This document shows positions 16,528-35,142 of a stretch of 60,682 nucleotides of DNA, one piece after another (the stretch's first letter is position 1; the number at the start of each line of letters is the position of its first letter). Both the position numbers and the translations under genes were made by a program. The stretch covers positions 1 through 60,682 of the forward strand of contig JAYRMT010000001.1 in the NCBI GenBank assembly GCA_041912575.1. Direction: 5' to 3'. This DNA comes from Fluviicoccus sp. (lineage in GTDB: Bacteria; Pseudomonadota; Gammaproteobacteria; Pseudomonadales; Moraxellaceae). The notes below the pieces were generated by a model. The model was not told the DNA's origin. It worked only from the letters and a program-made list of their open reading frames with translations, and made no database searches.

Positions 16528-16738
16528 GGTGCAATCCTCTTGGCATGTTTGAATGGGGCGCATCGCCCCGCCGCCGCCGGACTTCCGGTCGGGATACGGT
16601 ATAAACGCCCGAGCCTCTCCGTGGACGACACCGGCTATGTAACGAAATGTAGCCGAGGCGATTCCTGTCCGGCTGCCCTTTCCCTCCCGGCCTGCTAGAC
16701 TGCCGCCAACCCAGCACGGCAAGGGATGGAAATCCGTC

Positions 16739-18010: not shown

Positions 18011-18778
18011 ATGCGCCGTTTGCCCGCCTTTGCCTTTTCGGCCCTGATGCTGCTGGCCCGCGCCCAGGCCGACCAGGCCGAAACCCTTGCCCAGGAAGCC
18101 GACAAGCGTCTGCACGGCTTCGGCGACGCCACCGCCGCCCTGCGCATGACGCTGGTCAGTCCTTCGGGCCAGACCGCCGAGCGGGCATTGCACGTCCAGA
18201 ACCTGGAACTGGGCGCCGAAGGCGACCGCAGCCTGATGGTTTTCGACACCCCGCGCGATGTCGCCGGAACGGCGCTGCTGACCCACACCAAACCCGGCGC
18301 GGACGACCTGCAATGGCTGTACCTGCCCGCGATCAGCCGGGTCAAACAGATTGCCGCCGGTAACAAGTCCGGGCCGTTCATGGGCTCGGAGTTCGCGTTT
18401 GAAGACATCGTGACGCCCTACTGGCAGAAATACGGCTACCGCTTCGTCCGCGATGAAAAATGCGAAGCGCTGACCTGCGCCGTCATCGAACGGACGCCCA
18501 AGGATCCCGCCTCCGGCTACACCCGCCAGCTGGTGTGGATCGACCGGCAGGATTACCTGATCCGCCGCATCGACTACTACGACCGCAAGAACGAACTGCT
18601 CAAGACCTATACCGCGACCGGTTTCCAGAAAATCAGCGGCAACTGGCGGCCGTCGTCGATGCTGATGGTCAACCAGCAGAACCGGAAACAGACCCGGCTG
18701 GACTGGTCGGACTACCGGTTCAAGACCGGTCTGGGCAAGGATGACTTCACCGAAAACGCACTGAAGCGGGCCCGCTGA
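18011..18778 (+). CDS. Outer-membrane lipoprotein-sorting (LolA-like) periplasmic protein
   Basis: Signal peptide; FDTPRDVAGTALL, QWLYLPA..RVKQI, FMGSEFAFED, IDYYD. Confidence 0.88.
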   Translation: MRRLPAFAFSALMLLARAQADQAETLAQEADKRLHGFGDATAALRMTLVSPSGQTAERALHVQNLELGAEGDRSLMVFDTPRDVAGTALLTHTKPGADDLQWLYLPAISRVKQIAAGNKSGPFMGSEFAFEDIVTPYWQKYGYRFVRDEKCEALTCAVIERTPKDPASGYTRQLVWIDRQDYLIRRIDYYDRKNELLKTYTATGFQKISGNWRPSSMLMVNQQNRKQTRLDWSDYRFKTGLGKDDFTENALKRAR

Positions 18779-20034
18779 TGAAGCGGCGGATTTGCATCAG
18801 CCTGCTGAGCCTGACCGTTCCGGTGTGCGCTCTCGCCGCACCCGATGTCAAGGCCGAAGCCGGTCTCGAGCTGACCGGCTACAGCCAATCGGGCGCGCAA
18901 GGGCAAACGCGGATGGATGCTTCGCTGCGCCTGCTCGGCCAGGCGGACTGGGCCTGGAACGGCCGTCAGGACCGTTTCACCCTGAAACCGTTCTACCGTG
19001 CCGATCGGCAGGATGACGAGCGCACCCACAGCGACCTGCGCGAAGCGGTGTGGACGCATGCTGCCGGAGAGTGGCAGCAACGTGCCGGCATCGGCCAGGT
19101 GTTCTGGGGCGTCACTGAAGGCGCGCATCTGGTCGATATCGTCAACCAGACCGACACACTGGAAAACCCCGAAGGCGACGCCCGGCTCGGGCAGCCGCTG
19201 GTGAACGCCGCCTGGGAACGGGACAGCCATCTGGTCGATGTCTTCGTGCTGCCGGGCTTCCGGACGCGGCCCTACGCCGGGTTTGACGGCCGCCTGCGCC
19301 TGCCGTGGGTGGTGGATACCGATCATCCCGCCTATGAATCCGGACGCGGCCGCCGCCATGTCGATATCGCCGCCCGCTACCAGTTCAGCCGTGACGGCGT
19401 GCGCCTGGGCCTGAGCGCCTTCCGGGGCACCTCCCGTGAGCCGGAACTGCGGCCCATGGTCGATTTCACGCAGTTCGGCCCCGGCGGCTTCGCACCGGGT
19501 TATCAGCCGGTGCTTCAACCCTACTACCCGCTGACCCGCCAGATAGGTCTGGACGCGCAGATCACGCGCGGCGACTGGCTGTGGAAGCTGGAAGCCATCG
19601 ACCGTGACGGCTTCGGCCCGGGTCGCTATCAGGCCGCCAACGCCGGTTTTGAATACACGCAGGTCGGCGTGTTCGGCAGCCGTTTTGATCTCGGCTGGTT
19701 AGGCGAGGGGCTGTACGACAGTCGTGACACGAAGGCAACGACCCCGTTCGCCCGCGACATCCTGCTCGGCTGGCGGCTGGCCTTCAACGATGCCGCCTCC
19801 AGCGATTTGCTGCTGGTGATCGTCCGCGATACCCGGCATCCCGAAAGCTACACGCGGCTCAAGGGCTCCACCCGGCTCAACGACCGCCTGCGGCTGTCAC
19901 TGGAGAGCCGCCTGATCCGCAGCCGTGACCCGCAGTCCGCTTTCGACCTGCTTGCCGGCGCGGACACCGATTACCCCCTGCGCAGTTTCGCCGACGACAG
20001 CCATGTCCGCGCGGAACTGACCTGGTACTACTAA
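18778..20034 (+). CDS. Putative outer-membrane beta-barrel channel
   Basis: Signal peptide; DLREA..., GIGQVFWGVTE..HLVDIVNQ; C-terminal aromatic LTWYY; sits between LolA-like and MMPL genes. Confidence 0.75.
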   Translation: MKRRICISLLSLTVPVCALAAPDVKAEAGLELTGYSQSGAQGQTRMDASLRLLGQADWAWNGRQDRFTLKPFYRADRQDDERTHSDLREAVWTHAAGEWQQRAGIGQVFWGVTEGAHLVDIVNQTDTLENPEGDARLGQPLVNAAWERDSHLVDVFVLPGFRTRPYAGFDGRLRLPWVVDTDHPAYESGRGRRHVDIAARYQFSRDGVRLGLSAFRGTSREPELRPMVDFTQFGPGGFAPGYQPVLQPYYPLTRQIGLDAQITRGDWLWKLEAIDRDGFGPGRYQAANAGFEYTQVGVFGSRFDLGWLGEGLYDSRDTKATTPFARDILLGWRLAFNDAASSDLLLVIVRDTRHPESYTRLKGSTRLNDRLRLSLESRLIRSRDPQSAFDLLAGADTDYPLRSFADDSHVRAELTWYY

Positions 20035-20046
20035 GGAAACCCGTTC

Positions 20047-22386
20047 ATGTCGTCATCCGGCCCCGAATCCCGCACCGACCGCTTCTGGCGGCAACTGGCC
20101 GCGTGGATCGTCGACCATCCCTGGACCAGCATCCTGGGTTCGCTGTTGCTGACACTGGTGGTCAGCGCAGGCAGCGCCGGGTTCATCTATTCGATGGACC
20201 ACCGGGTCTTCTTCGGCCCGGACAATCCCCAGCTCAAGGCCTTCGAGAAGCTGCAGGAAGACTATACCCGCACCGACACCGTGCTGATCGGGCTGGAACC
20301 GCCGCAAGGGCAGGTCTTCACGGCCGGGTTTCTCGGCACGGTCCGCGAACTCACGGAACAAGCCTGGCAGGTCCCGCATGCCCAGCGTGTGGAATCGTTG
20401 ACCAACTTCCAGCATGTTGAAGTCGACGGCGACAACATCGCCACCCGCGATCTGGTGCCCGCCGGACAATCGCTGGATCCCGCCGCGCTGGCGCGCATCC
20501 GCGACATTGCCGTGCACGAGCCTTTCCTGGTCGATTCGCTGGTCAACGCCGAAGGCACGGTCGCCGGGGTGCGCATCACCCTGAACATGCCGGGCAAGAA
20601 TCCCAAGGTGGAAATTCCGGAAGTCGTCGACAAGGTGCGCACGATCACCGCCGCGTTGGTCAAGGAACATCCCGGTTTGAAAGTCCATCTGGCCGGGCAA
20701 CCGATCGCCAACAAGGCCTATCCGGAAGAATCGCAGGCCGACGGTGTGCGCGTCTGGCCGTGGTTCCTGCTGACCATGATGGGCATGCTGACCGTGCTGT
20801 TCCGCAGCGTGAAAGCCATGATCATCACCGTGGTCGCCTGCCTGCTGGCGGTGTTCGGCGGCGCGGGCGCGGTGGGCTTCTTCCGTTTCGTGATCAATGA
20901 CGGCGTCATTGTCGCCCCGGTGATGATCCTGTCGATGGCCTTCGCGGACGGCATCCACGTGGTCGTCAACTGGATCCAGAACGTCAACAACGGCCAGGAC
21001 AAGCGTACGGCCATGGCGAACAGCCTCGCCGTCAACATGGGACCGATGACCGTCACCTCGGTGATGACCGCCGTCGGCTTCCTGACCCTGCTGTTCAACG
21101 ACTCGCCGCCCTTCCAGGTCATGGGCCTGATCGTCTCCGCCGGGGTGGTGTTCGCGCTGATCCTGACCTTCTTCTTCACCGCGCCGCTACTGGCCGTGCT
21201 GCCGGGCGAACCGCCACGCAAGATCTCGCCGCTAATGCGCGAGGACTCCCCGGCCGTGGCCCGTTTCGCTGATTTCCTGATCGCGCACCGTGTGCCGGTG
21301 CTGGTGACCTGCCTGATCGCTACCGGCGCGCTCAGCCTGTTCAGCCTGCGCAACCAGATCAACGACGACATCGTGAAGTACTACACGCCGCAGGCGCAGT
21401 TCCGGCAGGACATGGAGTTCGTCAACAACCACCTGACCGGCATCGCGGAGGTCAATTATTCGTTGCCCGCCGGCGGCCCGGACAACATCGTCGATCCTGC
21501 CTACCTGAAAAAAGTCGACCAGTTCAGCGCCTGGCTGAAAACCCAGCCCGATGTGCGTCAGGTCAACTCGCTGGCCGACATCATCAAGCGTATCAACCAG
21601 GTCATGCACGGCAACGACCCGGCCTGGTACCGCATCCCGGACTCCCGCGAAGAGATCGCGCAGTACCTGCTGCAATACGAGCTGTCGCTGCCCAACGGCG
21701 CCGACCTGAATTACCTGATCCGTTTCGACCGCTCGGAGAGTCGCGTGCGGGTCTCGGTCGGCACCTCCAGCGGCCAGAAGATCATCGCCGTGGACAATGC
21801 CGCGCAAGGCTGGCTGAAGGCCAACGCCCCGGCCGCCATGCAGGTGCAGGGCAGTTCCCTGAACCTGATGTTCGCCAACATCGGCGCGCGCTCGATCAAC
21901 GGCATGTTCGGCGGCATGCTCGGCTCGCTGGTCGCGGAATCGTTGTTCGTGATGCTGGTGTTCCGCGCCTTTCGCCTTGGTCTGGCCAGCTTCCTCGGCA
22001 ACCTGATTCCGATCGGCGCGGCCTTTGGCGCGTGGGGCATCATCAACGGCAATATCGATGTCGGCCTCACCGTGGTGCTCGGCATCTCGTTCAGCGTGGT
22101 GGTGGACGACACCATCCACTTCATCGCCAAGTACGAACGCGCGCGATCCGTGGAAGGCAAGAGTCCGGAAGACGCGGTGCGCTACGCCTTCAGCCATGTG
22201 GGTTTCGCGCTGTTCTCGACCACGGCGGTGCTGGGTACCGGCTATGCCTGGCTGGCCAACTCGGCCATCCAGCTGACGGTGAACACGGCGATCGTGACCT
22301 GCACGACGATCCTGATCGCGCTGCTGATCGATGTGTTTTTGCTGCCGTGTCTGTTTTTGGTGATGGATCGGCGGAAGGTTGCGTGA
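20047..22386 (+). CDS. MMPL family (RND superfamily) lipid transporter
   Basis: Two-repeat 12-TM layout; ADGIH and VDDTIHF motifs; TAVGFLTL. Confidence 0.92.
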   Translation: MSSSGPESRTDRFWRQLAAWIVDHPWTSILGSLLLTLVVSAGSAGFIYSMDHRVFFGPDNPQLKAFEKLQEDYTRTDTVLIGLEPPQGQVFTAGFLGTVRELTEQAWQVPHAQRVESLTNFQHVEVDGDNIATRDLVPAGQSLDPAALARIRDIAVHEPFLVDSLVNAEGTVAGVRITLNMPGKNPKVEIPEVVDKVRTITAALVKEHPGLKVHLAGQPIANKAYPEESQADGVRVWPWFLLTMMGMLTVLFRSVKAMIITVVACLLAVFGGAGAVGFFRFVINDGVIVAPVMILSMAFADGIHVVVNWIQNVNNGQDKRTAMANSLAVNMGPMTVTSVMTAVGFLTLLFNDSPPFQVMGLIVSAGVVFALILTFFFTAPLLAVLPGEPPRKISPLMREDSPAVARFADFLIAHRVPVLVTCLIATGALSLFSLRNQINDDIVKYYTPQAQFRQDMEFVNNHLTGIAEVNYSLPAGGPDNIVDPAYLKKVDQFSAWLKTQPDVRQVNSLADIIKRINQVMHGNDPAWYRIPDSREEIAQYLLQYELSLPNGADLNYLIRFDRSESRVRVSVGTSSGQKIIAVDNAAQGWLKANAPAAMQVQGSSLNLMFANIGARSINGMFGGMLGSLVAESLFVMLVFRAFRLGLASFLGNLIPIGAAFGAWGIINGNIDVGLTVVLGISFSVVVDDTIHFIAKYERARSVEGKSPEDAVRYAFSHVGFALFSTTAVLGTGYAWLANSAIQLTVNTAIVTCTTILIALLIDVFLLPCLFLVMDRRKVA

Positions 22387-22396
22387 TGAGGCAGGG

Positions 22397-22466
22397 TGTA
22401 GGGTGGGTCAAGACCCACCGGCTGCCTCCGATCAACGGATGATGGTGGGTCTTGACCCACCCTACA
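22397..22466. repeat. REP doublet (REPIN-like)
   Basis: TGTAGGGTGGGTCAAGACCCACC ... GGTGGGTCTTGACCCACCCTACA: GTAG-footed palindromes in inverted orientation. Confidence 0.85.
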
Positions 22467-22503
22467 AACTACAAACCAACGAATTGATTAATGAGATCTT
22501 GAT

Positions 22504-23460
22504 ATGACCGAATCCACGCTCACCCTCGCCTCCCCCTGGCCCGCCCGCTTCATGGCCTGGGTGCACCAGCGTTTCGCGCTGCCGAACGCGCTGCTGTTCT
22601 TCATCCTGTACCTGACGGTCGCCGTGGTGGCGCGCGCCGGTCAGGAAGGCGCGGTGGCGCTGGGTCTGGCGGATGTCGTGGGTTGCCTGGTCACCTGGTC
22701 CTTCTTCCTGTTGCTGCGTGTCTTCGACGAGCACAAGGATTATGCACTGGACTGCAAGAACCACCCGCAGCGCGTACTGCAAAGCGGCCTGATCACGCTG
22801 GATCACCTGAAGATCGTCGGCGGCGTAGCGCTGGTCCTGCAGGTGGCCTATTCGCTGGCGCGCGACGGCGGTGTCGGCGCGACCTCCATTGCATGGATCG
22901 CGATGTTCGTCTGGACCTGCCTGATGGGCAAGGAGTTCTTCGTCGAGGCATGGCTGAACCGCCACCTGACGTGGTACGCCGTGTCCCACATGCTGGTGAT
23001 GCCGCTGGTGGTCTGGTGGCTGGCCAATCTGGCCGTGCCCGGCGTGGCGCTGAGCCTGCCGCTGGAGGCGCTGATGCTGCTCGCCTTTGTCAGCGGCTTC
23101 TGTTTCGAGATCACCCGCAAGACCAAGGGGCCGGAAGAAGAGCGCGACACCATCGACTCCTATTCGAAGATCTTCGGCACGCAAGGCTCGGCCTTGGTCG
23201 TTACCGGTCTGGTCACGGCCATGGTGGCCAACCAGGTCTGGCTGATCACCCTGCTGACGACCGCGTTTCCGGTCTGGGCGGGCGTGATCCTGGCGCTGTT
23301 CTGGGCCTTGGGCCTGAACCAGCTGGCGAGCTTCATCAAGACGCCGACGGCCAAAGGCCGAGAAAAGAACGAGGCGGCGGTGGCCCTGACCATGCTGGCC
23401 GGTTACGCCGTGGTGATTGCCGTGGTCCTGTTGGCGCATGGCGTCGCGTTTGCAGCCTGA
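22504..23460 (+). CDS. UbiA prenyltransferase-superfamily membrane protein
   Basis: Multi-TM; RVFDEHKDYALD...PQRVLQSG first Asp-rich motif; EITRK...EERDTIDSYS second motif. Confidence 0.75.
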   Translation: MTESTLTLASPWPARFMAWVHQRFALPNALLFFILYLTVAVVARAGQEGAVALGLADVVGCLVTWSFFLLLRVFDEHKDYALDCKNHPQRVLQSGLITLDHLKIVGGVALVLQVAYSLARDGGVGATSIAWIAMFVWTCLMGKEFFVEAWLNRHLTWYAVSHMLVMPLVVWWLANLAVPGVALSLPLEALMLLAFVSGFCFEITRKTKGPEEERDTIDSYSKIFGTQGSALVVTGLVTAMVANQVWLITLLTTAFPVWAGVILALFWALGLNQLASFIKTPTAKGREKNEAAVALTMLAGYAVVIAVVLLAHGVAFAA

Positions 23461-23472
23461 GGAGAAACTGTC

Positions 23473-26223
23473 ATGCTCCCGATCCGTCCTTACGCCTTCA
23501 CGCCGCATTACCTGTTCGGCGAAGAGCATCAGGCTGTCTGCCGTTTCTCGCTGGATGGCATGGACTTCGTCACCGATCCGGTCGATGTCTCGCTGAACCA
23601 CCTGACGGTGTCCGCCGACAGTTCGACGCCGCTGCCGCCGGTGGGCACCCGCCTGCCGAAAATCGAAGTCGAGATTCTCGGCCGGACCTACGTGCTGCCC
23701 TGCCTGTACGTGAAGGCGCTGCGCGAGGAAATGTGGACGCCGACCGAACTCGACCTGTCACTGGGCGACTGCGAGGATTCCGCCGCCGTGCTGTGGGAGA
23801 TCAGTTACGCGCTGCGCAACCAGCCCGCGCTGGACGGCGATACCGAGTACACCGACCACACCCTGCCGAAAATCCCGGCGCGCGGCCTCTACACCGAGGA
23901 AGCCCGTCAGGCGCGGCTGGACTTCGTGCGCGAGGAAACCGGCGCGGCGCTGACCGAGGTCTCGCAGATCCGTCTGGACCCGCGCAAGCTGGTCAGCAAC
24001 ATCGAGGCGCTGATCGGGTCGGTGGAAGTGCCGGTGGGCATTGCCGGACCGCTGCACATCAAGGGCACGCACGCGGGCGGGCTGTTCTACGCGCCGCTGG
24101 CGACCTCGGAAGGCGCGCTGGTGGCCTCGGCCTCGCGCGGCGCCACGGCGCTGTCGCGCTCCGGCGGCGTGCGCACCCGCGTGCTCGGCCAGCGCATGAT
24201 GCGCGTACCGGTATTCGTTTTTGAATCCATGAGTAACGCGCTGTTCTTCGCGGAATGGATCAAGGACAACTACCGTAATCTTGCCGACGAAGTGCAAAAG
24301 TACTCCAACTACGCTTCGCTGGAGGAAGTACAGCCCTACGTGCTCGGCCGCGCGGTGCATGTGCACTTCATCTACGAAACCGGCGACGCCGCCGGCCAGA
24401 ACATGACCACCACCTGCACCTGGCAGGCCTGCCAGTGGATCCTCAAGGGCATCAAGCGCTTCTCCGGATTGCGCATCGAGAACTTCCTGATCGAAGCCAA
24501 CCTCTCCAACGACAAGAAGGTCACCTACCAGACCTTCCTCAAGGGGCGCGGCGTGCGCGTGGTGGCGGAAGCGGTGCTGACCAGGGAAACCTGCGAGAAG
24601 ATCCTCAAGATCCAACCCAAGCAGATGGTCGCCGCCTACCACTACATTGTCTCAGGCTCCATCGCGGGCGGGATGATCGGCATCAACATCAACGTCGCCA
24701 ACATCATCGCCGCCATGTTCACCGCGCTCGGCCAGGACATCGCCTGCGTGCACGAATCCTCACTCGCCCAGCTGCATATGGAACTGACCGACGACGACGA
24801 TGTCTATTGCACGATGATGCTGCCCTCGCTGGTCATCGGCACCGTCGGCGGCGGCACCAACCTGCCGCAGCAGCGCGAATGCCTGGAAATGATCGGCTGC
24901 GCCGGTCCCGGCAAGGCGCACAAGCTGGCGGAAGTCATCGCCGCTTTCTGTCTGGCGCTTGATATTTCTACGCTGTCTGCCGTGGCCTCCGACCAGTTCG
25001 CCCGCGCCCATGAAAAGCTGGGCCGCAACCGGCCGGTCAACTACCTCAAGCTGGGCGACCTCGATCCGGACCTGTTCAACGAGGCGCTGCACCGCGCGGG
25101 TCACGCGCTGACCGTACGCGAGCTGACCCCGCTGAGCCGGGGCACCACCGGCTCCAGCATCATCACCGAACTGACTTCGCACAAGATCAACAAGCTGGTC
25201 GGCCATTTCCCCTACCGCATGCACACCGATCGCGGCGACATCGACGTCATGATCAAGGTGAAGCCGCTGGATTCGGAAGTCATCCTGATGGTCAACAGCA
25301 TGGCCGCGATGTGCAGCCCGCGTCTGGCGCAGGAGTTCAACCACTTCCGCGACCAGCTCGGCTTCAAGGGCTGCCACGTGCGTGAACTGGCGGTGATGAG
25401 CCAGACCGACCCGCGTTTCGTCCGCCATGCGCCGACCGTGTACGGCGTGGTGCGCGACGACGAGCGCGAGGCCTACGTGATCATCCAGGAAAAGCTGCAA
25501 GGCCTGGTGCACATGGACTCCGCCGACAACACCTCGGGCTGGACGCGTGAGCATCTGGAAGCGGCGATCAAGGGTATCGCCGAAGTCCATGCCATCTGGC
25601 TGGGCCGCGAGGACGAACTGCAGCAGCAGCCATGGATGGTCGGCTATCCCACCGCAGCCAACATGGCCGAGAAACTGCGCCTGTGGGAGCTACTGGGCGT
25701 CCATTCGCGCGAAGAGTTCCCGGAATGGTTCTCCGAGCAGGACCTGTCCAACTACCGCGATATCGTGCACAGCATCAGCGAATGGTGGGGGTTGATCGAA
25801 CAGATGCCGCGCACGCTGATCCACAATGACTTCAATCCGCGCAACATCGCCTTCCGCCACGAGGCGGACGGCTCGCTGCGCCTGTGCGCCTACGACTGGG
25901 AAATGGCGACGATGCACCTGCCGCAGCATGACCTGGTCGAGCTGCTCGGCTTCACCATGTACGACCCGATCGATCCCGCCGAGGTCGAGTCCTACATCGA
26001 GCTGCACCGCGTCGAACTGGAACGCCACAGCGGCATGACGCTGGACCCGGTGATGTGGAAGCGCGGCTACGTGCTGGCGCTGATGGACCTGCTGGTCAAC
26101 CGCCTGCCGATGTACATGATGGCGCACACCTTCCGCCACTACGAGTTCATGGAGCGCGTCTACCGCGCCTTCCGCGCGCTGCTGGATATCGAACAGGTCG
26201 GTCAGCCGGGAGTGAAGCCATGA
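23473..26223 (+). CDS. Class I HMG-CoA reductase-like domain fused to a C-terminal APH/choline-kinase-like phosphotransferase
   Basis: PLATSEGALVAS, TGDAAGQNM, NLSNDKK, GQDIA, GTVGGGT, AHEKLGR; then LIHNDFNPRN...YDWE. Confidence 0.9.
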   Translation: MLPIRPYAFTPHYLFGEEHQAVCRFSLDGMDFVTDPVDVSLNHLTVSADSSTPLPPVGTRLPKIEVEILGRTYVLPCLYVKALREEMWTPTELDLSLGDCEDSAAVLWEISYALRNQPALDGDTEYTDHTLPKIPARGLYTEEARQARLDFVREETGAALTEVSQIRLDPRKLVSNIEALIGSVEVPVGIAGPLHIKGTHAGGLFYAPLATSEGALVASASRGATALSRSGGVRTRVLGQRMMRVPVFVFESMSNALFFAEWIKDNYRNLADEVQKYSNYASLEEVQPYVLGRAVHVHFIYETGDAAGQNMTTTCTWQACQWILKGIKRFSGLRIENFLIEANLSNDKKVTYQTFLKGRGVRVVAEAVLTRETCEKILKIQPKQMVAAYHYIVSGSIAGGMIGININVANIIAAMFTALGQDIACVHESSLAQLHMELTDDDDVYCTMMLPSLVIGTVGGGTNLPQQRECLEMIGCAGPGKAHKLAEVIAAFCLALDISTLSAVASDQFARAHEKLGRNRPVNYLKLGDLDPDLFNEALHRAGHALTVRELTPLSRGTTGSSIITELTSHKINKLVGHFPYRMHTDRGDIDVMIKVKPLDSEVILMVNSMAAMCSPRLAQEFNHFRDQLGFKGCHVRELAVMSQTDPRFVRHAPTVYGVVRDDEREAYVIIQEKLQGLVHMDSADNTSGWTREHLEAAIKGIAEVHAIWLGREDELQQQPWMVGYPTAANMAEKLRLWELLGVHSREEFPEWFSEQDLSNYRDIVHSISEWWGLIEQMPRTLIHNDFNPRNIAFRHEADGSLRLCAYDWEMATMHLPQHDLVELLGFTMYDPIDPAEVESYIELHRVELERHSGMTLDPVMWKRGYVLALMDLLVNRLPMYMMAHTFRHYEFMERVYRAFRALLDIEQVGQPGVKP

Positions 26224-28925
26224 GCCGCACGCTGTACCGGCAGGAAGACGCGCTGTTCCTCGATCCGGCGCTGCTTGGCGGCAAGGCTGCCAACCTGGCC
26301 TGGCTGACCCGCGAAGGGCTGCCGGTGCCGCGCTGGTCGGTGGTCACCACGGAGGCTTTTACGACGCTGTTGCGGGAAAACGGCTTGTCGGAGCTGGTGC
26401 AAACCGAACTGGCGGCGCTGGGCGTGAACCCCGACCCGGCCGCTGTCGAACCGGTGGCCGAACGCCTGCGCGCCCGCGTGCTCGCGGCGCGCCTGCCGGA
26501 CGGCCTGATGGCCGAACTGCGCGACTGGCTGGCCGGGCAGGAAGACGGCTTTTTCGCCGTCCGGTCCTCGGTGCTCGGGGAAGACGCCGAGGGCGCCTCG
26601 TTCGCCGGGCAGATGGACAGCTACCTGTTCCAGCGCGGCCTCGACGCCATCGCCGACAGCCTGAAGCAGGTCGCCGCCTCCGCCTTCAACACCCGCGCGC
26701 TGCAATACCGGCTGGCCAAGGGCATCGCGCTGGACGACATCCGCGCCGCCGTGATCCTGCAGGAAATGGTCGAGGGCGAGGTGTCGGGCGTGATGTTCAC
26801 CGCGCATCCGCTCACCGGCAGCCGTCGCCACGCGCTGATCTCCGCCGCCTGGGGCGTGGGGGAAGGGATCGTCGCCGGCATCTGCAACACCGATGAATTC
26901 ACCGTGCCGCTGTTCGACAACGCCCTGACCGTGCAGCTCGCCGACAAGGACGAAGCCGTGGTCTTCGACCGCGATGCCGGGCGCGGCACGCGGGAAGTCG
27001 CCGTGTCGGAAGCGCAGCGGCATATCCCCTGCCTGACGGACACGCAGGCGCTGGCGCTGCGCGACCTCGGCCTGAAGATCGCGACGCTGCAACGCTTCCC
27101 GCAGGACATCGAATGGACGCTGCGCGACGGCAAGCCTTACATCCTGCAAACCCGGCCGGTCACGCGCCTTCCTGATCCGGAGCAACCACCCGGCCGCCGC
27201 ATCGTCTTCGACAACTCCAACATCCAGGAGTCCTACTGCGGCGTCACCACCCCGCTGACCTTCAGCTTCGCCAACCGCGCCTACGCCACCGTCTACGAAC
27301 AGACCATGCGCGTGCTCGGCGTCAGCGAGAAGCGCATCGCCGACCACCGCGACATGCTCGACAACATGCTCGGGCTGGTGCACGGCCGTGTGTACTACAA
27401 CATCAACAACTGGTATCGCGGCCTGCTGCTGCTGCCCGCCTTCAAGACCAACAAGGCGGACATGGAACGCATGATGGGCCTCACCGATCCGGTCGATCTG
27501 GTGCAGGACCGCGAACTGACAACCGGCGAGAAACTGCTTCGCCTGCCTCAGGTGCTGCGCGCACTGTTCAACCTGCTGCGCGGCTTCCGGCGCATGGCCA
27601 TGCTGGTTGCCGCCTTCCGCGCACTTTTCGAGGAAGCTTACCGCAGCATCGACCGCAAGCACCTGCATACGCGCACGCCCGGCGAGCTGATTGACGAAGC
27701 TCGCCGCCTCGACCGCGACCTGCTGCAACGCTGGACCACGCCCATCCTCAACGACTTCTACGTGATGATGATGAACGGCAAGGTCCACCGCACGCTGGTG
27801 CAGGCGGGCTTTGACGAGCCGTCGGTGCTGCAGAACAACCTGCTTTCCGGCGAGGACGACATCGAAAGTACCGAGCCGACCAAGATGCTGCTGCGCATGT
27901 GCGCCTTCATCCGCGCGCGTCCCGCCTTGCGCGCGCTGGTGGAACAGGGCGACAACGCCACCCTGCTCGACCGCGTGCAGATTGCCGATCCGGCCTTCCA
28001 CGCCCAATGTCTGGATTACATCGAACGCTACGGCGACCGCACCATCGGCGAACTCAAGCTGGAATCGGTCACCCTGCGTCAGGACACCGCCTTCCTGTTC
28101 GCCGTGCTGAAGAACTACCTGACCCGCGACGACCTGACTCCGGAAACGCTGGCCGCCAAGGAAGCGCAGTTCCGTGACTCCGCCGAACACGAAGCCTTCA
28201 CCGCCATCCGCGACAAGCTTGGCGCGCGGGTCCTGGCGACCTTCAGGAAGAATCTCGCCAAACTGCGCGACGCCATCCGCAACCGCGAGAACATGCGCCT
28301 TGCCCGCACGCGGGTCTTCGGGCTGTACCGCGATCTCTACCTCGAAATCGGCCGCCAGTTCGCCTTCAGCGGCTGGCTGGACGACCCGCGCGACATTTTC
28401 TGGCTGACCGTGGACGAGCTCTACGCCTTGCAGGACGGGCGCGCCGCGCAGGTCAGCCTCAAGCCGCTGGTGGCCGGACGCAAGGCCGAGTTCGCCGAAT
28501 ACGAGAAACACGACCTGCCTCACCATTTTCACACCCGGGGCATGGTTTACTACCAGAACCGTTACGAGTACCCCTTTGCCGAACCGGAAGCGCCGAGCGG
28601 CAACGAACTCAAGGGCACCGGCTGCTATCCCGGCGTGGTCGAGGAGAAGGTTCGGCTGATCTTCTCGCCCGACGACGAACTGTCGCTGAACGGCCAGATC
28701 CTCTGCACCGTGCGCACCGATCCGGGCTGGGCGCCGCTGTTCCCCACCGCCGGCGGCATCCTGGTCGAACGCGGCTCCACGCTGTCGCATTCCGCCGTGG
28801 TGGCGCGGGAGCTGGGCATCCCGGCGATTGTCGGCGTGCCGGGCATCACGAAGCTGCTGCGGGATGGCGAGAAAGTGCGGATGGACGGGGCGAAGGGAAC
28901 GGTGGTGCGTCTCGAACAGGAATGA
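26220..28925 (+). CDS. PEP-synthase/rifamycin-phosphotransferase-type dikinase (ATP-grasp, central substrate domain, C-terminal phospho-His swivel)
   Basis: LGGKAANL, AVRSS..GED..ASFAGQ, QDIEW, ILQTRPVT; TDPGWAPLF...LSHSAVVARELGIP; ATGA overlap with the previous gene. Confidence 0.9.
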   Translation: MSRTLYRQEDALFLDPALLGGKAANLAWLTREGLPVPRWSVVTTEAFTTLLRENGLSELVQTELAALGVNPDPAAVEPVAERLRARVLAARLPDGLMAELRDWLAGQEDGFFAVRSSVLGEDAEGASFAGQMDSYLFQRGLDAIADSLKQVAASAFNTRALQYRLAKGIALDDIRAAVILQEMVEGEVSGVMFTAHPLTGSRRHALISAAWGVGEGIVAGICNTDEFTVPLFDNALTVQLADKDEAVVFDRDAGRGTREVAVSEAQRHIPCLTDTQALALRDLGLKIATLQRFPQDIEWTLRDGKPYILQTRPVTRLPDPEQPPGRRIVFDNSNIQESYCGVTTPLTFSFANRAYATVYEQTMRVLGVSEKRIADHRDMLDNMLGLVHGRVYYNINNWYRGLLLLPAFKTNKADMERMMGLTDPVDLVQDRELTTGEKLLRLPQVLRALFNLLRGFRRMAMLVAAFRALFEEAYRSIDRKHLHTRTPGELIDEARRLDRDLLQRWTTPILNDFYVMMMNGKVHRTLVQAGFDEPSVLQNNLLSGEDDIESTEPTKMLLRMCAFIRARPALRALVEQGDNATLLDRVQIADPAFHAQCLDYIERYGDRTIGELKLESVTLRQDTAFLFAVLKNYLTRDDLTPETLAAKEAQFRDSAEHEAFTAIRDKLGARVLATFRKNLAKLRDAIRNRENMRLARTRVFGLYRDLYLEIGRQFAFSGWLDDPRDIFWLTVDELYALQDGRAAQVSLKPLVAGRKAEFAEYEKHDLPHHFHTRGMVYYQNRYEYPFAEPEAPSGNELKGTGCYPGVVEEKVRLIFSPDDELSLNGQILCTVRTDPGWAPLFPTAGGILVERGSTLSHSAVVARELGIPAIVGVPGITKLLRDGEKVRMDGAKGTVVRLEQE

Positions 28926-28926
28926 T

Positions 28927-29068
28927 GTAGGGGCGCACTGCGTGCGCCCTCTCGAAACGAACATGCCCCTGTAGGTCGGGCTTCAGCCCGACAAAGTCCT
29001 CCGATCACAGGGTGTTGTCGGGCTCAAGCCCGACCTACAGCAAAAGGGCGCACGCCGTGCGCCCCTAC
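28927..29068. repeat. Nested REP doublets
   Basis: Outer GTAGGGGCGCACTGCGTGCGCCCT...AGGGCGCACGCCGTGCGCCCCTAC encloses inner GTAGGTCGGGCTTCAGCCCGACA...TGTCGGGCTCAAGCCCGACCTAC (28971-29038). Confidence 0.85.
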
Positions 29069-29072
29069 GGTG

Positions 29073-30194
29073 ATGACGATGAACATGCTGACCTGCGGTC
29101 CATGGCCCCCCGGCTCCCCCCTCCCGGACGCCTTCCTCGCCCTGCCCGCCCGCATCTACCGGGACGATCCCTTCTGGCTCGGCGAAGATCCGCAGGACCT
29201 CACCCGCCAGTTCAGCCCCGCCAACCCGTGGTTCGCCCAGGGTAAAGCCTGGATCGGCGTCATCCCCGGACAGGCGCGGCTGGCGGGCTTCCGCGTGCCG
29301 GGCCAGGTCATCGACGGCGAGGAAGCCGCTTTTTTCGGTTTCTGGGACAGCATCGACGACGACGCACCCAACGACGCCCTGTTCGCCGCCCTCAAAGACT
29401 GGGCGCGTGCGTCCGGCGCCACCCGCCTCTACGGCCCGATCAACTTCACCACCTTCGGCGCCAACCGCCTGCGGCTGGATGCCTTCGAACACGGCGCGTT
29501 TCCCGGCGAGCCCTGGAATCCGCCGTACTATCCCGCCCTGCTGGCGCGGCAGGGTTTCGACATCCGGTACAAGTACCTGTCCACCTTCGCCAAGGTTGCG
29601 GACATCCTGCCCGATGTGCAGCGCGATTACCTGCGCGTCCGCCCCAAGCTCGAACAGGCGGTCCGCTTTTCTGAAATGACGCCGGAATTCTGGCTGGAGA
29701 ACCTCGACGAGCTCTACGGCTTTGTCCATCAGGTGTTCGGCGCCAATTTCGCCTACACGCCGATCACCCTGGAGACGTTCCGGCAGGTCTGCGGCGCGTC
29801 CTTCGCGCGAAAATTCTGCCCGAAAACCTCCATCCTGGCCCGCGCGCACGACGGGCGTATTGCCGGGTTTTTCCTCGTCTATCCGGACTACGCACCGCTG
29901 CTACGGCAGGCGAATCCGTCACGGGTGGATGCCGGAGCCGTCAACTGGGCGGAGCACTTCCCGCAACTGCCCGCGCCCCGGCTGGCGCTGGCCAAGACCG
30001 GCGGCGTGCATCCCGATTTCCGCGCGATCGGTCTTTTTACCGCCATGGGCTGCGAACTGACCTTGCGCGCCGACGGGATTTATGACGAGATAGCGGGCAC
30101 GCTGGTGCGCGAGGACAACGCCTCGCTCCATTTCGCGGCCCGCCACGGCCAGGCCCGACAGCACCACTATGCTCTTTATGGAAGCCCGCTATGA
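29073..30194 (+). CDS. YghO/bacterial ceramide synthase-like double-GNAT acyltransferase
   Basis: LPARIYRDDPFW, NPWF, AFFGFWDSIDD, LYGPINFTT, PWNPPYY, GVHPDFRAIGL; start could be 29073, 29079 or 29085. Confidence 0.7.
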   Translation: MTMNMLTCGPWPPGSPLPDAFLALPARIYRDDPFWLGEDPQDLTRQFSPANPWFAQGKAWIGVIPGQARLAGFRVPGQVIDGEEAAFFGFWDSIDDDAPNDALFAALKDWARASGATRLYGPINFTTFGANRLRLDAFEHGAFPGEPWNPPYYPALLARQGFDIRYKYLSTFAKVADILPDVQRDYLRVRPKLEQAVRFSEMTPEFWLENLDELYGFVHQVFGANFAYTPITLETFRQVCGASFARKFCPKTSILARAHDGRIAGFFLVYPDYAPLLRQANPSRVDAGAVNWAEHFPQLPAPRLALAKTGGVHPDFRAIGLFTAMGCELTLRADGIYDEIAGTLVREDNASLHFAARHGQARQHHYALYGSPL

Positions 30195-31810
30195 CCGGAA
30201 TCAACCTCATCCGCCCCATCCTTGACGCCTGCCGCGACCATCCGGAGCGCATGGCCCTGCGCATCCCGCAGATGGAAGGGCAACGGTGCGCCGGCGAACA
30301 GGTGATGACCTACGGCGACCTCGGCGTGGAAGTCGGCCGCCTGCAACGCGCCTTGCAGGCCATGGGCCTCAAGCAGGGCGACCGCGTACTGATCCTGTCT
30401 CGGGTCCGCAGCGAGATCTACACCCTGATGATCGCCCTGCTCGGTCTGGGCATGGTGCCCGTCCTGATCGACCGCGGCATGAGTCCCGACCGCATCCGCC
30501 AGTCCATCCGTCTCAGCAAGGCGCGCGCGGCCATCGGCGAGGCGCGCATCCTGCGCCTGTGGTGGCTGTTTCCGCCCCTGTGGTTCATCAAGCGCCTGGC
30601 CATCGACGACCGCCTGATCGGCGTGGACGACCTGCGCACCTGGAAACCCGATCATGCCGATCCGCAAGCCGTCGATCTGGACGAACACGCGCACGGCCTG
30701 ATCACCTTTACCTCCGGCAGCACCGGCCAGCCTAAGGGCGCGGACCGCACGCACGCCAGCCTGATCGCGCAGCACGACGCCATCCGCGAGCACTGGCGCG
30801 ACATCCCCGACGACATCGACAGCCCCTGTTTTCCTGTCATGGTGCTGCACAACCTCTGCTGCGGCATTACGACCGTCCTGCCTCGCGTGGACCTCGCCGC
30901 GCCGGGCCAGGTGGATGCCGCGCAAGTGCTGGGCCAGATCGGTCAGGACGGGATCACCCGCGTGTCCGGCGCTCCCGCCTACATGCGGCGGCTGGTCAAC
31001 CACGCCATCGAGCAGAAACTGGAATTGCCGCATGTCCGCGCCGTGGCCATCGGCGGCTCGACGCTGTTCGCCGACCTGATCGAGAAACTGCCCGCTGTCT
31101 TTCCGCACGCGGATTTCAGTCTGGTGTACGGCTCGACCGAGGCCGAACCGGTGGCGGTGATCGGCCTGAGCGAATTGCGCGCCGACGGCGACCTGCATCC
31201 CGGCCATCTGGTCGGCCTGCCGGTGCCGGACGTGCAGATCGCGGTGGTGTCGCCGGACGCCATGGTGTGCGACGAAATCACCGTGCTCGCCGCCCGGCTG
31301 CCCTTCTTCCAGGTCGGTGAAATCCTCGTCGCCGGGCCGCATGTGCTGAAAGGCTATGTCGACAACCCCGAAGCGACGCGCGAAAACAAGATTCCCCGCC
31401 ACGACGGCGAAGTCTGGCACCGCACCGGCGACGCCGGCTTCCTCGACGAGAGAGGCCGCCTGTGGCTGGTCGGTCGCATGAAGGACGTGCTGCAACTGGG
31501 CGAAGTGCGCCTGTGGCCCTATCCGCTGGAAAAAGCGCTGGACGCCCTGCCCGGCGTGCGCCGCAGCGCCGCGATCCTCTGGCAGAAACAGTTGCTGCTG
31601 GTGATCGAAGGCGACCTGCTGCCCTCCGAAGACGCGGTGCGCCGTCTGCTGATCGACCATCAGGTGACCGCCGCGCAGTGGGCGCTGATCCCGCTGATGC
31701 CGGTGGACGGCCGCCACAACAGCAAGATCGACCGGCCCGCCCTGCGCAACCTGCTGCAAGCCGACCGCTTGAAGCCGCAGGCGCTGACCATCGCGGCCAA
31801 CGGCATCTGA
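30191..31810 (+). CDS. AMP-binding (ANL) enzyme, OleC-like
   Basis: TFTSGSTGQPKG, YGSTEAEP, WHRTGDAG, PVDGRHNSKIDR. Confidence 0.88.
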   Translation: MTGINLIRPILDACRDHPERMALRIPQMEGQRCAGEQVMTYGDLGVEVGRLQRALQAMGLKQGDRVLILSRVRSEIYTLMIALLGLGMVPVLIDRGMSPDRIRQSIRLSKARAAIGEARILRLWWLFPPLWFIKRLAIDDRLIGVDDLRTWKPDHADPQAVDLDEHAHGLITFTSGSTGQPKGADRTHASLIAQHDAIREHWRDIPDDIDSPCFPVMVLHNLCCGITTVLPRVDLAAPGQVDAAQVLGQIGQDGITRVSGAPAYMRRLVNHAIEQKLELPHVRAVAIGGSTLFADLIEKLPAVFPHADFSLVYGSTEAEPVAVIGLSELRADGDLHPGHLVGLPVPDVQIAVVSPDAMVCDEITVLAARLPFFQVGEILVAGPHVLKGYVDNPEATRENKIPRHDGEVWHRTGDAGFLDERGRLWLVGRMKDVLQLGEVRLWPYPLEKALDALPGVRRSAAILWQKQLLLVIEGDLLPSEDAVRRLLIDHQVTAAQWALIPLMPVDGRHNSKIDRPALRNLLQADRLKPQALTIAANGI

Positions 31811-31811
31811 T

Positions 31812-32438
31812 ATGAGCGACTCCCGTTTCATCATCCGGCTTAATCCGGTGGACTGCCTGACGCTCAGCGGCGTGTTCACCAGCGGCGTGGCGATGATCCT
31901 CGGCCTGCAGGGCTATGCCTATCTGGCGACGGCGATCCTGTTCGTGGCGATGCTCGGCGACGCGCTGGACGGCATGCTGGCGCGCAAGTACCGGCTGGAG
32001 CGCCCTTTCGGCCGCTACCTCGACGGGTTCATGGATGTGCTGATCTATCTGGTCGCCCCCTCCCTGATCCTGATGGCGCATGGCTTCAACGGCCTTTGGG
32101 CGCTGTTCCTGCTGGGGATGGTGATGTGCGGTTGCATCCGGCTGTCGGTGTTCAACGACATCGGCAATATCCAGGAAAGCAACGGGCTGGCTTATCTGGG
32201 CATGCCGGTGTTCTGGAGCGTGTTCCTGCTGGCGGGCTATCTGCTGCTGGAACCGGCGTTGCCGGTGCTGGCCGGTCGCGGGTTACTGGCGGTGGTGCTG
32301 GTCGCGTTCAGTACGGCAATGCTGTTGCGGCGGCCGTTCTTCAAGTTCAAGAAGTTGTGGCAGATACTGGGGCTGACCATCGGGGGCGCGCTGCTGTTTA
32401 CGGTGCTGCATTTTGTGCGGGGGCCGGGGCATGTTTGA
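31812..32438 (+). CDS. CDP-alcohol phosphatidyltransferase
   Basis: DALDGMLAR...FGRYLDGFMD signature (DxxDGxxAR...GxxLDxxxD). Confidence 0.92.
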   Translation: MSDSRFIIRLNPVDCLTLSGVFTSGVAMILGLQGYAYLATAILFVAMLGDALDGMLARKYRLERPFGRYLDGFMDVLIYLVAPSLILMAHGFNGLWALFLLGMVMCGCIRLSVFNDIGNIQESNGLAYLGMPVFWSVFLLAGYLLLEPALPVLAGRGLLAVVLVAFSTAMLLRRPFFKFKKLWQILGLTIGGALLFTVLHFVRGPGHV

Positions 32439-32970
32439 GGCGTTGTGGCAGGCCTGGTATCTGCAATTGCCGGTGATTGTGGGGGGCGTGCTGCACATGG
32501 TGGTGGTGACGCGCAATCTGGCGCCGTCACTGGCGGTGCCGGTGTGGCGGGCGGCGTTCGGGGCGAACAAGACCTGGCGCGGGATGCTGGCGGTGCCTTT
32601 GCTGACGCTATTGGGGGCGTTGGTGTGGTTGCCGTTCGAGGCGGTGCTGGCGGATGCGTCGCCGTTGGCGGGGCATTCGTTGGGACTGGCGGCGTTTGCG
32701 GCGGGTGTGGGGTATGTGCTGGCGGAGTTGCCGAATTCGTTTCTGAAGCGGCGGTTGGGGATTGCGCCGGGAGAGTCGCCGGACAAGGCTAAGTGGTTGT
32801 TTGTGTTGTTGGATCAGCTGGATTCGGGGGTTGGGGTGGCGGTGGCGTATGGGGTGGTGCTGGGGGCTCCTCTGCCGGTTTTGGGGATGTTTGTGGTGAG
32901 TTTTCCGGTGACGGCGTTGGTTGTGAAAAGATTACTTTTTTGGGCGAGGTTGAAGAAATCGGCGGTTTGA
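32431..32970 (+). CDS. CDP-archaeol synthase (CarS/DUF46)-like cytidylyltransferase
   Basis: FGANKTWRG, ELPNSFLKRRLGIAPG, LDQLDS. Confidence 0.82.
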   Translation: MFEALWQAWYLQLPVIVGGVLHMVVVTRNLAPSLAVPVWRAAFGANKTWRGMLAVPLLTLLGALVWLPFEAVLADASPLAGHSLGLAAFAAGVGYVLAELPNSFLKRRLGIAPGESPDKAKWLFVLLDQLDSGVGVAVAYGVVLGAPLPVLGMFVVSFPVTALVVKRLLFWARLKKSAV

Positions 32971-33850: not shown

Positions 33851-33881
33851 GGTCTTCTCCTTCTCACTCCTAATTTTTTCG

Positions 33882-35123: not shown

Positions 35124-35142
35124 CCCGGTTGCCTCCCCGCCA

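What the first reader, a model, noticed from the sequence alone, without database searches (positions are those of the whole stretch)
18011..32970. Ten-gene operon for an apparently undescribed exported (phospho)lipid
Seen: ten co-directional genes with overlapping or very short junctions, except for two REP-filled gaps: LolA-like, OM barrel, MMPL, UbiA-like, HMGR-kinase fusion, RPH-type dikinase, YghO/bCerS-like GNAT, OleC-like ligase, CDP-alcohol transferase and CarS-like. Known family chemistries: acyl activation, thioester reduction, two phosphorylations, prenyl transfer, acyl transfer, CDP activation, head-group transfer, and lipid transport. No HMG-CoA synthase, GHMP kinase, PKS, NRPS or serine palmitoyltransferase is in the window. 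Inference: a self-contained route to an unusual phospholipid, perhaps on a mevalonate-like or other non-glycerol backbone, delivered to the outer membrane or exterior. I know of no characterised pathway with this gene set.
Basis: partly seen in the sequence, partly recalled or inferred. Interest (0 to 1): 0.92.

Follow-up and report, generated by a model that had tools for sequence, protein, structure and literature searches.

The report
Glycerol-free phospho-amino-acid lipid operon
Ten tightly packed genes, conserved in many unrelated bacteria and described in no paper I found, likely turn fatty acids into phosphorylated fatty alcohols and then into an unknown amino-acid-headed envelope lipid that may lack glycerol, which would be a new lipid class.

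Summary
In detail: ten co-directional intact genes, short or overlapping junctions, two REP-filled gaps. The seven enzyme genes recur at 33 of 45 well-flanked related loci, all ten at 19 of 45; the transport trio is accessory. The 'mevalonate-like' idea fails. The reductase has the FcrA (fatty acyl-CoA reductase) pocket in all 117 copies, and 5 of 5 host genomes use Dxr and lack HMG-CoA synthase and mevalonate kinase. Natural gene swaps suggest the chemistry. The fused kinase alternates with a prenol-kinase-like gene, CarS plus PssA-like with BtaA-like DUF3419, and the YghO/bCerS-type GNAT with a formyltransferase; each pair co-occurs at 0 of 183 loci. One lineage lost UbiA, dikinase and ligase together but kept four genes under purifying selection. 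Best model (0.45): acyl-CoA to alkanol, alkyl phosphate, CDP-alkanol, alkyl-phosphoserine, then N-acylation, with an optional UbiA/dikinase/ligase module adding a second O-linked chain. Main rival: an ether glycerophospholipid (0.25). No product, activity or co-transcription is shown. This scan noted the gene set before in other genomes.

The parts
18011..18778 (+). LolA-like periplasmic lipid carrier (255 aa, signal-peptide-like N-terminus, no lipobox Cys); accessory
   Evidence: PF17131 E 4e-60; N-terminus read from the sequence
18778..20034 (+). Outer-membrane beta-barrel (418 aa); accessory
   Evidence: No Pfam hit; AlphaFold barrel, pLDDT 82; Foldseek hits are porins, AlgE and Wzi, E about 1e-9
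20047..22386 (+). MMPL/HAE3-type RND lipid transporter (779 aa)
   Evidence: PF03176 5e-17; TIGR00921 1e-28, below cut-off
22397..22466 (.). REP-like inverted repeat pair
   Evidence: 23-nt arms, 100% complementary; copies on 2 other contigs
22504..23460 (+). UbiA-fold membrane transferase with a rewired second motif (invariant R72, D75, D79, K206; H162 and R205 in 139 of 140)
   Evidence: PRK05951 above cut-off; nearest solved sequences are DGGGP synthase 4e-6 and chlorophyll synthase 3e-3; conservation
23473..26223 (+). FcrA-type fatty acyl-CoA reductase (res. about 145-518) fused to an APH/choline-kinase-type kinase (about 555-910), with a variable N-terminal domain (about 1-118)
   Evidence: Pfam; catalytic E213, K348, D422, H513 kept; E341, H390/Y391 and F509 replace the HMG-binding residues; kinase motifs HNDFNPRN and DWE conserved
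26220..28925 (+). RPH/PigC-architecture phospho-His dikinase (901 aa; His857; R689-E690)
   Evidence: PRK06241.2-4 above cut-off; RPH 352 bits and PigC 309 bits, both below cut-off; full-length alignment to RPH 5fbs; motifs conserved in 29 aligned copies
28927..29068 (.). Nested REP-like inverted repeats
   Evidence: 24-nt and 26-nt arms, 96% complementary; more than 20 other contigs
29070..30194 (+). Tandem-GNAT acyltransferase of the YghO/bCerS family
   Evidence: yghO lies beside spt, ACP and an acyl-AMP ligase in E. coli
30191..31810 (+). ANL-family acyl-adenylate ligase (PRK09274, distantly OleC-like)
   Evidence: PRK09274 above cut-off; OleC models 224 and 179 bits against cut-offs 900 and 850; fused to the UbiA-like protein in P0366
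31812..32438 (+). CDP-alcohol phosphotransferase, closest to serine-type enzymes (PssA, archaetidylserine synthase)
   Evidence: Complete D-x2-DG-x2-AR...G-x3-D-x3-D motif; PssA 64 and ArtS 60 bits against PgsA 35 and PIP synthase 25, all below cut-off
32431..32970 (+). CarS-like cytidylyltransferase (179 aa); fused to the CDP-alcohol transferase at 35 loci
   Evidence: PF01864 2e-4, PRK04032 2e-8; KTWRG, S-x2-KR-x2-G and DQ-x-D motifs conserved; fusion count

Best explanation
The operon likely builds a glycerol-free envelope phospholipid in which a fatty alcohol is joined through phosphate to serine, whose amine is probably acylated, and which probably carries a second O-linked chain. Inferred steps: (1) the FcrA-type domain reduces a long-chain acyl-CoA to the alcohol with NADPH. 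(2) The fused kinase makes the alkyl phosphate. (3) The CarS-like enzyme makes CDP-alkanol and the PssA-like enzyme transfers it to serine; in other lineages DUF3419 would reach the one-carbon homologue, alkyl-phospho-homoserine, directly from SAM. (4) The YghO/bCerS-type GNAT N-acylates the amino acid (chain length unknown). (5) The separable ligase + dikinase + UbiA module adds a second chain, most simply by raising alkyl-P to alkyl-PP and O-alkylating a hydroxyl or carboxylate, as phytol kinase, VTE6 and chlorophyll synthase do in plants. (6) MMPL, the LolA-like carrier and the barrel move the product to or through the outer membrane. Shown here: genes, motifs, folds, conservation and swaps. 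No reaction is shown.
For: FcrA signature: acidic residue at human S684 in 117 of 117 copies, Phe at L862 in 114 of 117 (3 gaps), no Lys at the pocket-lysine position in 117 of 117, catalytic residues kept. These are the diagnostics of PMC11948995, where Pb-FcrA reduces acyl-CoA of C14 or longer and not HMG-CoA. No mevalonate partners, Dxr present. Kinase swap: APH kinase only at 124 loci, prenol-kinase-like only at 6, both at 0 of 183; the latter has the invariant R-K-x-x-H clamp described for a prenol kinase in PMC10849223. Head-group swap: CDP-transferase/CarS only at 80, DUF3419 only at 27, both at 0. A kinase is kept in both types, which fits a phosphate acceptor in both; SAM aminocarboxypropyl transfer onto a phosphate has precedent in MccD (PMC10491745). 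GNAT is replaced by a formyltransferase at 4 loci, never both, and is missing at L104, which fits optional amine tailoring. A four-gene form (reductase-kinase, GNAT, CDP-transferase~CarS) forms one clade, with dN/dS 0.15-0.27 for L030 vs L031. No UbiA-like match was found in those 5 genomes and only dikinases of 42-45% or less over short pieces, 37% or less over long ones, so CarS probably acts on the kinase product itself. Housekeeping CdsA and PssA exist apart in 5 of 5 genomes. A ligase~UbiA fusion exists.
Against: No product or activity is known. Serine as head group rests on scores far below cut-off (64 vs 107). BtaA's known acceptor is the hydroxyl of diacylglycerol (recalled), and MccD is not homologous to BtaA. 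The swaps follow clades on the tree, so they are about 2-3 independent events, not 183; many loci are truncated or near-duplicates. The prenol-kinase label has motif support only: Pfam, NCBIfam and PDB sequence searches gave no such hit. A saturated alkyl-PP is a poor UbiA donor (established chemistry), so step 5 needs an SN2 route or an allylic chain, and this locus has no desaturase. The minimal form arose once, in MAGs of untold completeness; L071's reductase is frameshifted, and one genome holds an unresolved 36% ligase match. Three Myxococcota loci (L117, L119, L121) carry UbiA, dikinase, DUF3419 and MMPL without a reductase-kinase nearby, and G211 (95% complete) has no HMGR-family match at all, so the UbiA-dikinase pair can act on a substrate not made by this reductase.
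Confidence: 0.45

Rival explanations
1. An ether glycerophospholipid made by an archaeal-style route with straight chains: alkanol, alkyl-P, alkyl-PP, UbiA etherifies glycerol phosphate, the GNAT adds the second chain, then CarS and the PssA-like enzyme add serine (DUF3419 versions would give ether betaine-type lipids).
For: The UbiA-like protein's best solved relative is DGGGP synthase (E 4e-6). CarS plus a serine transferase is the archaetidylserine layout. PMC11948995 proposes that some FcrA feed ether lipids. BtaA's known acceptor is a glycerolipid hydroxyl (recalled).
Against: The four-gene form without UbiA and dikinase stays under selection and could not make an ether this way. The GNAT is optional or swapped for a formyltransferase, unlike a backbone acyltransferase. 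No GGGPS-, PlsC- or AGPS-type gene recurs in the loci (clustering; a PlsC-type gene lies near L065).
Confidence: 0.25
2. A ceramide-mimic or diol backbone: the reductase acts on a hydroxy- or N-acylamino-acyl-CoA (made by the GNAT and the ligase) to give a diol or N-acyl amino alcohol, which is phosphorylated and given a head group.
For: HMG-CoA is itself a 3-hydroxyacyl-CoA. The GNAT belongs to the family found in the E. coli sphingolipid cluster, and bCerS acylates a long-chain base (PMC11087976). Desaturase or P450 genes join some loci.
Against: The pocket residues equal those of plain acyl-CoA reductase FcrA. The ligase is lost in the four-gene form and the GNAT at L104. There is no Spt in the locus, and the genome's best matches are partial, 33-39% (genome 80% complete).
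Confidence: 0.17
3. The UbiA-like enzyme uses an ordinary prenyl diphosphate from the MEP pathway (or acts as an acyltransferase fed by the ligase) to decorate the lipid, and the dikinase adds a terminal phosphate as RPH does; the product is a secreted amphiphile rather than a bulk membrane lipid.
For: Motif 1 (D75-E76-x-K-D79-x3-D83) and R90 are intact. Dxr is present. The RPH catalytic Arg-Glu and His align. A ligase~UbiA fusion and a nearly invariant His162 fit acyl transfer. Exporter-type genes (MMPL, ABC-2/HlyD, FtsX/MacB) flank many loci.
Against: Motif 2 has Lys where chlorophyll synthase has Asp, in 140 of 140. UbiA and the dikinase are lost together, which implies they act in series.
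Confidence: 0.1
4. A mevalonate or isoprenoid-precursor pathway.
For: Class I HMGR fold with the catalytic residues, fused to a kinase.
Against: HMG-binding residues are replaced in all 117 copies. HMG-CoA synthase and mevalonate kinase reach cut-off in 0 of 5 genomes, Dxr in 5 of 5.
Confidence: 0.02

Closest known systems
FcrA, the HMGR-derived fatty acyl-CoA reductase (PMC11948995)
   Same: Class I HMGR fold, catalytic E/K/D/H, the three FcrA pocket substitutions, host without a mevalonate pathway
   Different: Fused to a kinase and set among phosphate-activation and head-group genes, not a wax synthase. The host has WS/DGATs and a second stand-alone FcrA-like gene elsewhere. The parts of the paper I read do not describe this cluster.
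Archaeal archaetidylserine route (GGGPS, DGGGPS, CarS, serine transferase)
   Same: UbiA-fold O-alkylating relative, CarS-like and serine-type CDP-alcohol transferase
   Different: No GGGPS gene in the loci; chains come from acyl-CoA; UbiA motif 2 is rewired; UbiA is dispensable in one lineage
Bacterial sphingolipid synthesis (Spt, bCerS/YghO, CerR)
   Same: YghO-family tandem GNAT plus an acyl-adenylate ligase and envelope transport genes
   Different: No Spt, ACP or CerR in the cluster; only 22-23% identity to YghO
Plant phytol salvage (VTE5, VTE6, chlorophyll synthase); functions recalled, reviews seen as search listings only
   Same: Logic of alcohol to phosphate to diphosphate to UbiA-family O-alkylation; a prenol-kinase-like gene occurs in type-B clusters; weak similarity to chlorophyll synthase
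   Different: Donor would be non-isoprenoid; second phosphorylation by a phospho-His dikinase; acceptor unknown
Betaine lipid synthesis (BtaA/BtaB)
   Same: DUF3419 is present in sister clusters
   Different: Absent from this locus, where CarS plus CDP-transferase stands instead; no BtaB-like partner seen
Rifampin phosphotransferase and PigC/RedH
   Same: ATP-grasp, substrate and His-swivel domain order; catalytic His and Arg-Glu
   Different: Own family (PRK06241.2-4), far below the RPH and PigC cut-offs; biosynthetic context

Membership tests
Class I HMG-CoA reductase / mevalonate pathway | Catalytic E559, K691, D767, H866 | tested here: met
   117, 117, 117 and 114 of 117
Class I HMG-CoA reductase / mevalonate pathway | HMG-binding Ser684, pocket Lys (printed as Lys795 in PMC11948995; I mapped it to the Lys of human NKNLVG), Leu862 | tested here: not met
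   E/D in 117 of 117; Lys in 0 of 117; Phe in 114 of 117
Class I HMG-CoA reductase / mevalonate pathway | HMG-CoA synthase and mevalonate kinase in the genome | tested here: not met
   0 of 5 genomes over cut-off for each; 2 of the 5 are 97-99% complete
FcrA | Three pocket substitutions plus kept catalytic residues | tested here: met
FcrA | Falls in the FcrA clade with Pb-FcrA | not tested
   No reference FcrA sequence was obtained; the paper's supplement could not be read; my tree holds cluster copies only
FcrA | NADPH-dependent reduction of long-chain acyl-CoA | not testable with these tools
   Needs an enzyme assay
FcrA | N-terminal Lad domain (in some members) | not tested
   The N-terminal domain is variable and undetected in several copies; its fold was not modelled
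Archaeal ether phospholipid route | GGGP synthase | tested here: inconclusive
   None in the window locus and none among recurring neighbours; genome not searched
Archaeal ether phospholipid route | UbiA-type synthase with both Asp-rich motifs | tested here: not met
   Motif 1 kept; motif 2 reads E202-x-x-R205-K206 (136, 139 and 140 of 140)
Archaeal ether phospholipid route | CarS and serine-type CDP-alcohol transferase | tested here: inconclusive
   Motifs intact, scores far below family cut-offs
Bacterial sphingolipid pathway | bCerS/YghO-type acyltransferase | tested here: met
   hhalign 98.6%, 345 columns; YghO = bCerS is inferred from gene context and recall
Bacterial sphingolipid pathway | Serine palmitoyltransferase and CerR with it | tested here: not met
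   None in the cluster; genome hits are partial, 33-39% and 26-29% (genome 80% complete)
Betaine lipid (BtaA/BtaB) | DUF3419/BtaA in the locus | tested here: not met
   No DUF3419 among the ten genes; never with CDP-transferase/CarS at 183 loci
Olefin (OleABCD) synthesis | OleC above cut-off with OleA, OleB and OleD | tested here: not met
   224 vs 900 bits; no OleA or OleD; an alpha/beta-hydrolase joins the ligase only in formyltransferase loci
Rifampin phosphotransferase | Domain order and catalytic His, Arg-Glu | tested here: met
Rifampin phosphotransferase | Score above the RPH family cut-off | tested here: not met
   352 vs 999 bits

The most novel reading that the evidence does not exclude
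A third backbone design for bacterial envelope phospholipids, with neither glycerol nor a sphingoid base. The lipid is an alkyl-phospho-(homo)serine that two unrelated enzyme sets reach convergently (CDP route or SAM route). Its second chain is put on by a UbiA-fold enzyme re-tooled to transfer a non-isoprenoid alkyl group from an alkyl diphosphate made by a phospho-histidine dikinase.
Probability: 0.3. Interest if true: 0.93.

Novelty: categorically new. Interest (0 to 1): 0.78.

Why it matters
Known membrane phospholipids are built on glycerol or a sphingoid base, with rare diol exceptions (recalled). This gene set was found in 10 of 400 sampled Gammaproteobacteria and 11 of 151 genomes of a myxobacterial phylum, counts that include the centre genomes, and also in Bacillota, Alphaproteobacteria and Spirochaetota loci. 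Its UbiA-like family alone spans 798 clusters at 50% identity (E at most 1e-30). It offers a testable answer to what the many FcrA genes not tied to wax synthase do, a question raised in PMC11948995. It predicts new chemistry for four families (UbiA, RPH-type dikinases, DUF3419, CarS). Cultured carriers exist (Fluviicoccus keumensis, Thalassolituus, Atopomonas, HdN1), and the natural four-gene form gives a small set to express.

Tried and rejected
Literature: ten searches. Six aimed at the cluster or its product found no paper describing it. The one hit (PMC12419801; three passages read) concerns other neighbourhoods. The library lacks most subscription papers, and MIBiG/antiSMASH were not available, so absence from print is not proven. 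The original bCerS paper was not held. The FcrA supplement could not be read and may show kinase-fused FcrA or this neighbourhood. Expression: three RNA runs held only 5-7% of the words. Laid contigs were short (about 140-340 nt exact pieces, depth 2-5), also covered the upstream GST gene, and none of the listed RNA pieces bridged a junction (table cut), so they show neither operon transcription nor habitat. Promoter and terminator scans were at chance level. PDB sequence searches gave nothing for the GNAT profile or the prenol-kinase-like proteins and only a weak APH match for the kinase (E 0.04). The Atlas look-up of the prenol-kinase-like protein did not complete. No complex prediction was run. 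Rejected: chance cluster; recent foreign island (GC 0.63-0.67 and GC3 like the host, host REPs inside, present in 5 of 5 congeners); rifampin resistance gene, olefin, sphingolipid and mevalonate pathways (membership table); wax-ester role (separate paralogue and WS/DGATs). The direction of the MMPL/LolA/barrel trio is unresolved; substrate import is not excluded.


Full report
1. Observation. The ten ORFs are present, intact and co-directional from 18011 to 32970, with gaps of -1, 12, 117, 12, -4, 144, -4, 1 and -8 nt. The two larger gaps hold inverted-repeat pairs that recur in the genome. Eight family labels are confirmed by Pfam/NCBIfam. The other two were confirmed by folding: a tandem GNAT related over its full length to E. 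coli YghO and a porin-like barrel. The closest named relatives are Fluviicoccus (82% for the reductase-kinase). Base composition matches the host, and all 5 congeners searched carry the fused gene, one as a partial match.

2. Conservation. Of the 80 loci kept (87 found), 45 have at least 6.5 kb upstream and 9.5 kb downstream of the reductase core; the other 35 were dropped for short flanks. Of the 45, 33 hold all seven enzyme genes, 29 also an MMPL, and 19 all ten. The UbiA-like profile matched 10 of 400 scored Gammaproteobacteria and 11 of 151 genomes of L074's myxobacterial phylum (centre genomes included). Sister clusters lie in Brevibacillus and Roseinatronobacter and in Spirochaetota. The enzyme core is therefore old and widespread; the LolA-like and barrel genes are mostly confined to one branch, with LolA-like genes also beside some myxobacterial loci.

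3. The reductase is FcrA-type. An earlier scan note pointed to FcrA; I checked it. [quoted passage not shown] All three are present here and across 117 cluster copies: E/D for Ser684 in 117, Phe for Leu862 in 114 (3 gaps), and no Lys in either column that can align to the pocket lysine. In five host genomes HMG-CoA synthase and mevalonate kinase never reach cut-off while Dxr always does. A second, stand-alone FcrA-like gene and several WS/DGATs exist elsewhere in the host, so the fused copy is free for another job. The same five genomes also have normal CdsA and PssA, so the cluster's CarS-like and PssA-like genes probably handle a lipid phosphate that the housekeeping enzymes do not.

4. Natural swaps. 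Component HMMs over 183 loci give three layouts. Type A (this window): reductase~APH kinase with CDP-transferase and CarS. Type B: stand-alone reductase, a prenol-kinase-like membrane protein, and DUF3419. Type C (myxobacteria-like): reductase~kinase with DUF3419. APH kinase and prenol-kinase-like never co-occur (124, 6, 0); nor do CDP-transferase/CarS and DUF3419 (80, 27, 0); nor GNAT and formyltransferase (106, 4, 0). The loci are kin, partly truncated, partly duplicates, and were chosen with my own queries; on the tree the types are clades. These are therefore a few evolutionary events, not a statistical test. Their logic still informs. A swap with a protein bearing the R-K-x-x-H clamp of prenol kinases (passages of PMC10849223 read) fits phosphorylation of a long-chain alcohol. 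A formyltransferase in the GNAT's role fits an amine acceptor. Keeping a kinase whichever head-group enzyme is used is explained most simply if both end in alkyl-phosphate-amino acid: serine through CDP, or homoserine from SAM, as MccD does on a phosphate (PMC10491745, one passage read).

5. A separable module. L029 (truncated), L030, L031, L053 and L071 keep reductase-kinase, GNAT and CDP-transferase~CarS but lack three non-adjacent genes: UbiA, dikinase and ligase. Their genomes gave no UbiA-like match with the window query (0 of 5) and only distant dikinases. Ligase matches were 26-36% in 3 of the 4 tested, against 44% in the full-cluster control. The four with full reductase cores form one clade inside type A, and L030 vs L031 shows dN/dS of 0.15-0.27; L071's reductase is frameshifted. 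A ligase~UbiA fusion exists (P0366). So the three genes form an add-on, and the four-gene core must itself make something: alkyl-P to CDP-alkanol to phospho-amino acid to N-acyl derivative needs no glycerol. Against this, three myxobacterial loci have UbiA, dikinase, DUF3419 and MMPL with no reductase-kinase nearby, and G211 has no HMGR-family gene.

6. The UbiA step is the weakest. Its nearest solved relatives are the O-alkylating members, DGGGP synthase and chlorophyll synthase. Motif 1 is intact. Motif 2 is rewired to E-x-x-R-K, and His162 is present in 139 of 140 diverse copies. The dikinase keeps RPH's phospho-His and Arg-Glu. I read this as alkyl-P to alkyl-PP followed by O-alkyl transfer, perhaps SN2 with His as base, because saturated alkyl diphosphates do not ionise as prenyl donors do (established chemistry). 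Prenylation from the MEP pool, or acyl transfer, remain possible.

7. Transport. MMPL, LolA-like and barrel genes point to trafficking across the envelope. Other loci have a divergent MMPL, or ABC-2/HlyD or FtsX/MacB genes, in their place. Direction is untested. RNA contigs were too sparse to show transcription of the operon.

8. Comparison and novelty. The locus fails defining tests for the mevalonate, sphingolipid, olefin, betaine-lipid and RPH systems, and differs from the archaeal route in UbiA motif 2 and in chain source. It works like a hybrid of FcrA, phytol salvage and archaetidylserine synthesis. Six targeted searches found no description, within a library that lacks most subscription papers. 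For bCerS I read passages of PMC11087976; the functions of BtaA, VTE5/VTE6, ChlG, OleC and the RPH residues are recalled. This scan had flagged the gene set in at least ten earlier notes on other genomes; these are leads, not support. They gave me the FcrA lead, and they had already suggested a fatty-alcohol lipid with an amino-acid head, mostly as ether-linked. What I tested afresh here is the mutual exclusion of the three gene pairs, the selected four-gene form, and from them the glycerol-free phospho-amino-acid model.

9. Verdict. A real, conserved and apparently undescribed lipid pathway that starts from a fatty alcohol and its phosphate (about 0.8 likely for that start). The product is most likely a glycerol-free N-acyl alkyl-phosphoserine with an optional second chain (0.45); an ether glycerophospholipid is next (0.25). 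Interest 0.78.

Noticed in passing
G000:C84:1-678 (L081): Second, stand-alone HMGR/FcrA-like gene (43% to the cluster copy, cut by the contig end). Such genes occur in many family relatives, and in G001 and G004 one lies 7-11 kb from a WS/DGAT; probably the wax-ester reductase.
   Followed up: partly
window 7780-9945: Low-GC stretch (0.51-0.54 vs 0.64) with a DUF4145 gene and ORFs without a Pfam match; possible small foreign insert.
   Followed up: no
window 33029-36039: Convergent Sel1-repeat, TPR-like and FecR-domain genes right after the operon; not seen as recurring neighbours of related loci.
   Followed up: no
window 14869-16782: DUF4382 lipoprotein-like gene upstream on the minus strand.
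   Followed up: no
window 4417-7452 and 57257-58504: Long minus-strand ORFs (1011 and 415 aa) with no Pfam match at 1e-6; coding frame not verified.
   Followed up: no
L013, L014, L020, L021, L023, L024, L033, L044: A fatty-acid-desaturase gene is inserted just before the UbiA-like gene; it could supply an unsaturated chain.
   Followed up: partly
L079:12407-18948 and L133: Variant with a ligase~CarS fusion and no GNAT, followed by a P450 and, in L079, a PapA/condensation-type acyltransferase before the CDP-transferase.
   Followed up: partly
L029-L031, L053, L057, L059, L061, L071, L079: Full, formyltransferase and four-gene versions sit at the same chromosomal site, downstream of one conserved gene resembling asparaginyl-tRNA synthetase (label recalled): a natural series for comparison.
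   Followed up: partly
L117, L119, L121: Myxobacterial four-gene set UbiA-like, dikinase, DUF3419, MMPL without reductase, GNAT or ligase nearby; an HMGR-family gene lies elsewhere in those genomes.
   Followed up: partly
L093:5319-13103 (E. coli FDN-24): yghO, labelled a putative transcription regulator in K-12, is a tandem-GNAT homologue lying beside spt, ACP, an oxidoreductase, an acyl-AMP ligase and lptFG paralogues.
   Followed up: yes
L091:22799-23752: The Brevibacillus type-B cluster is followed by an ETX/MTX2-family gene and probable transposase remnants; no link to the pathway seen.
   Followed up: no
G031:C1:324093-325472 (genome of L032): A WS/DGAT lies about 11 kb past the cluster's CDP-transferase in HdN1.
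   Followed up: no
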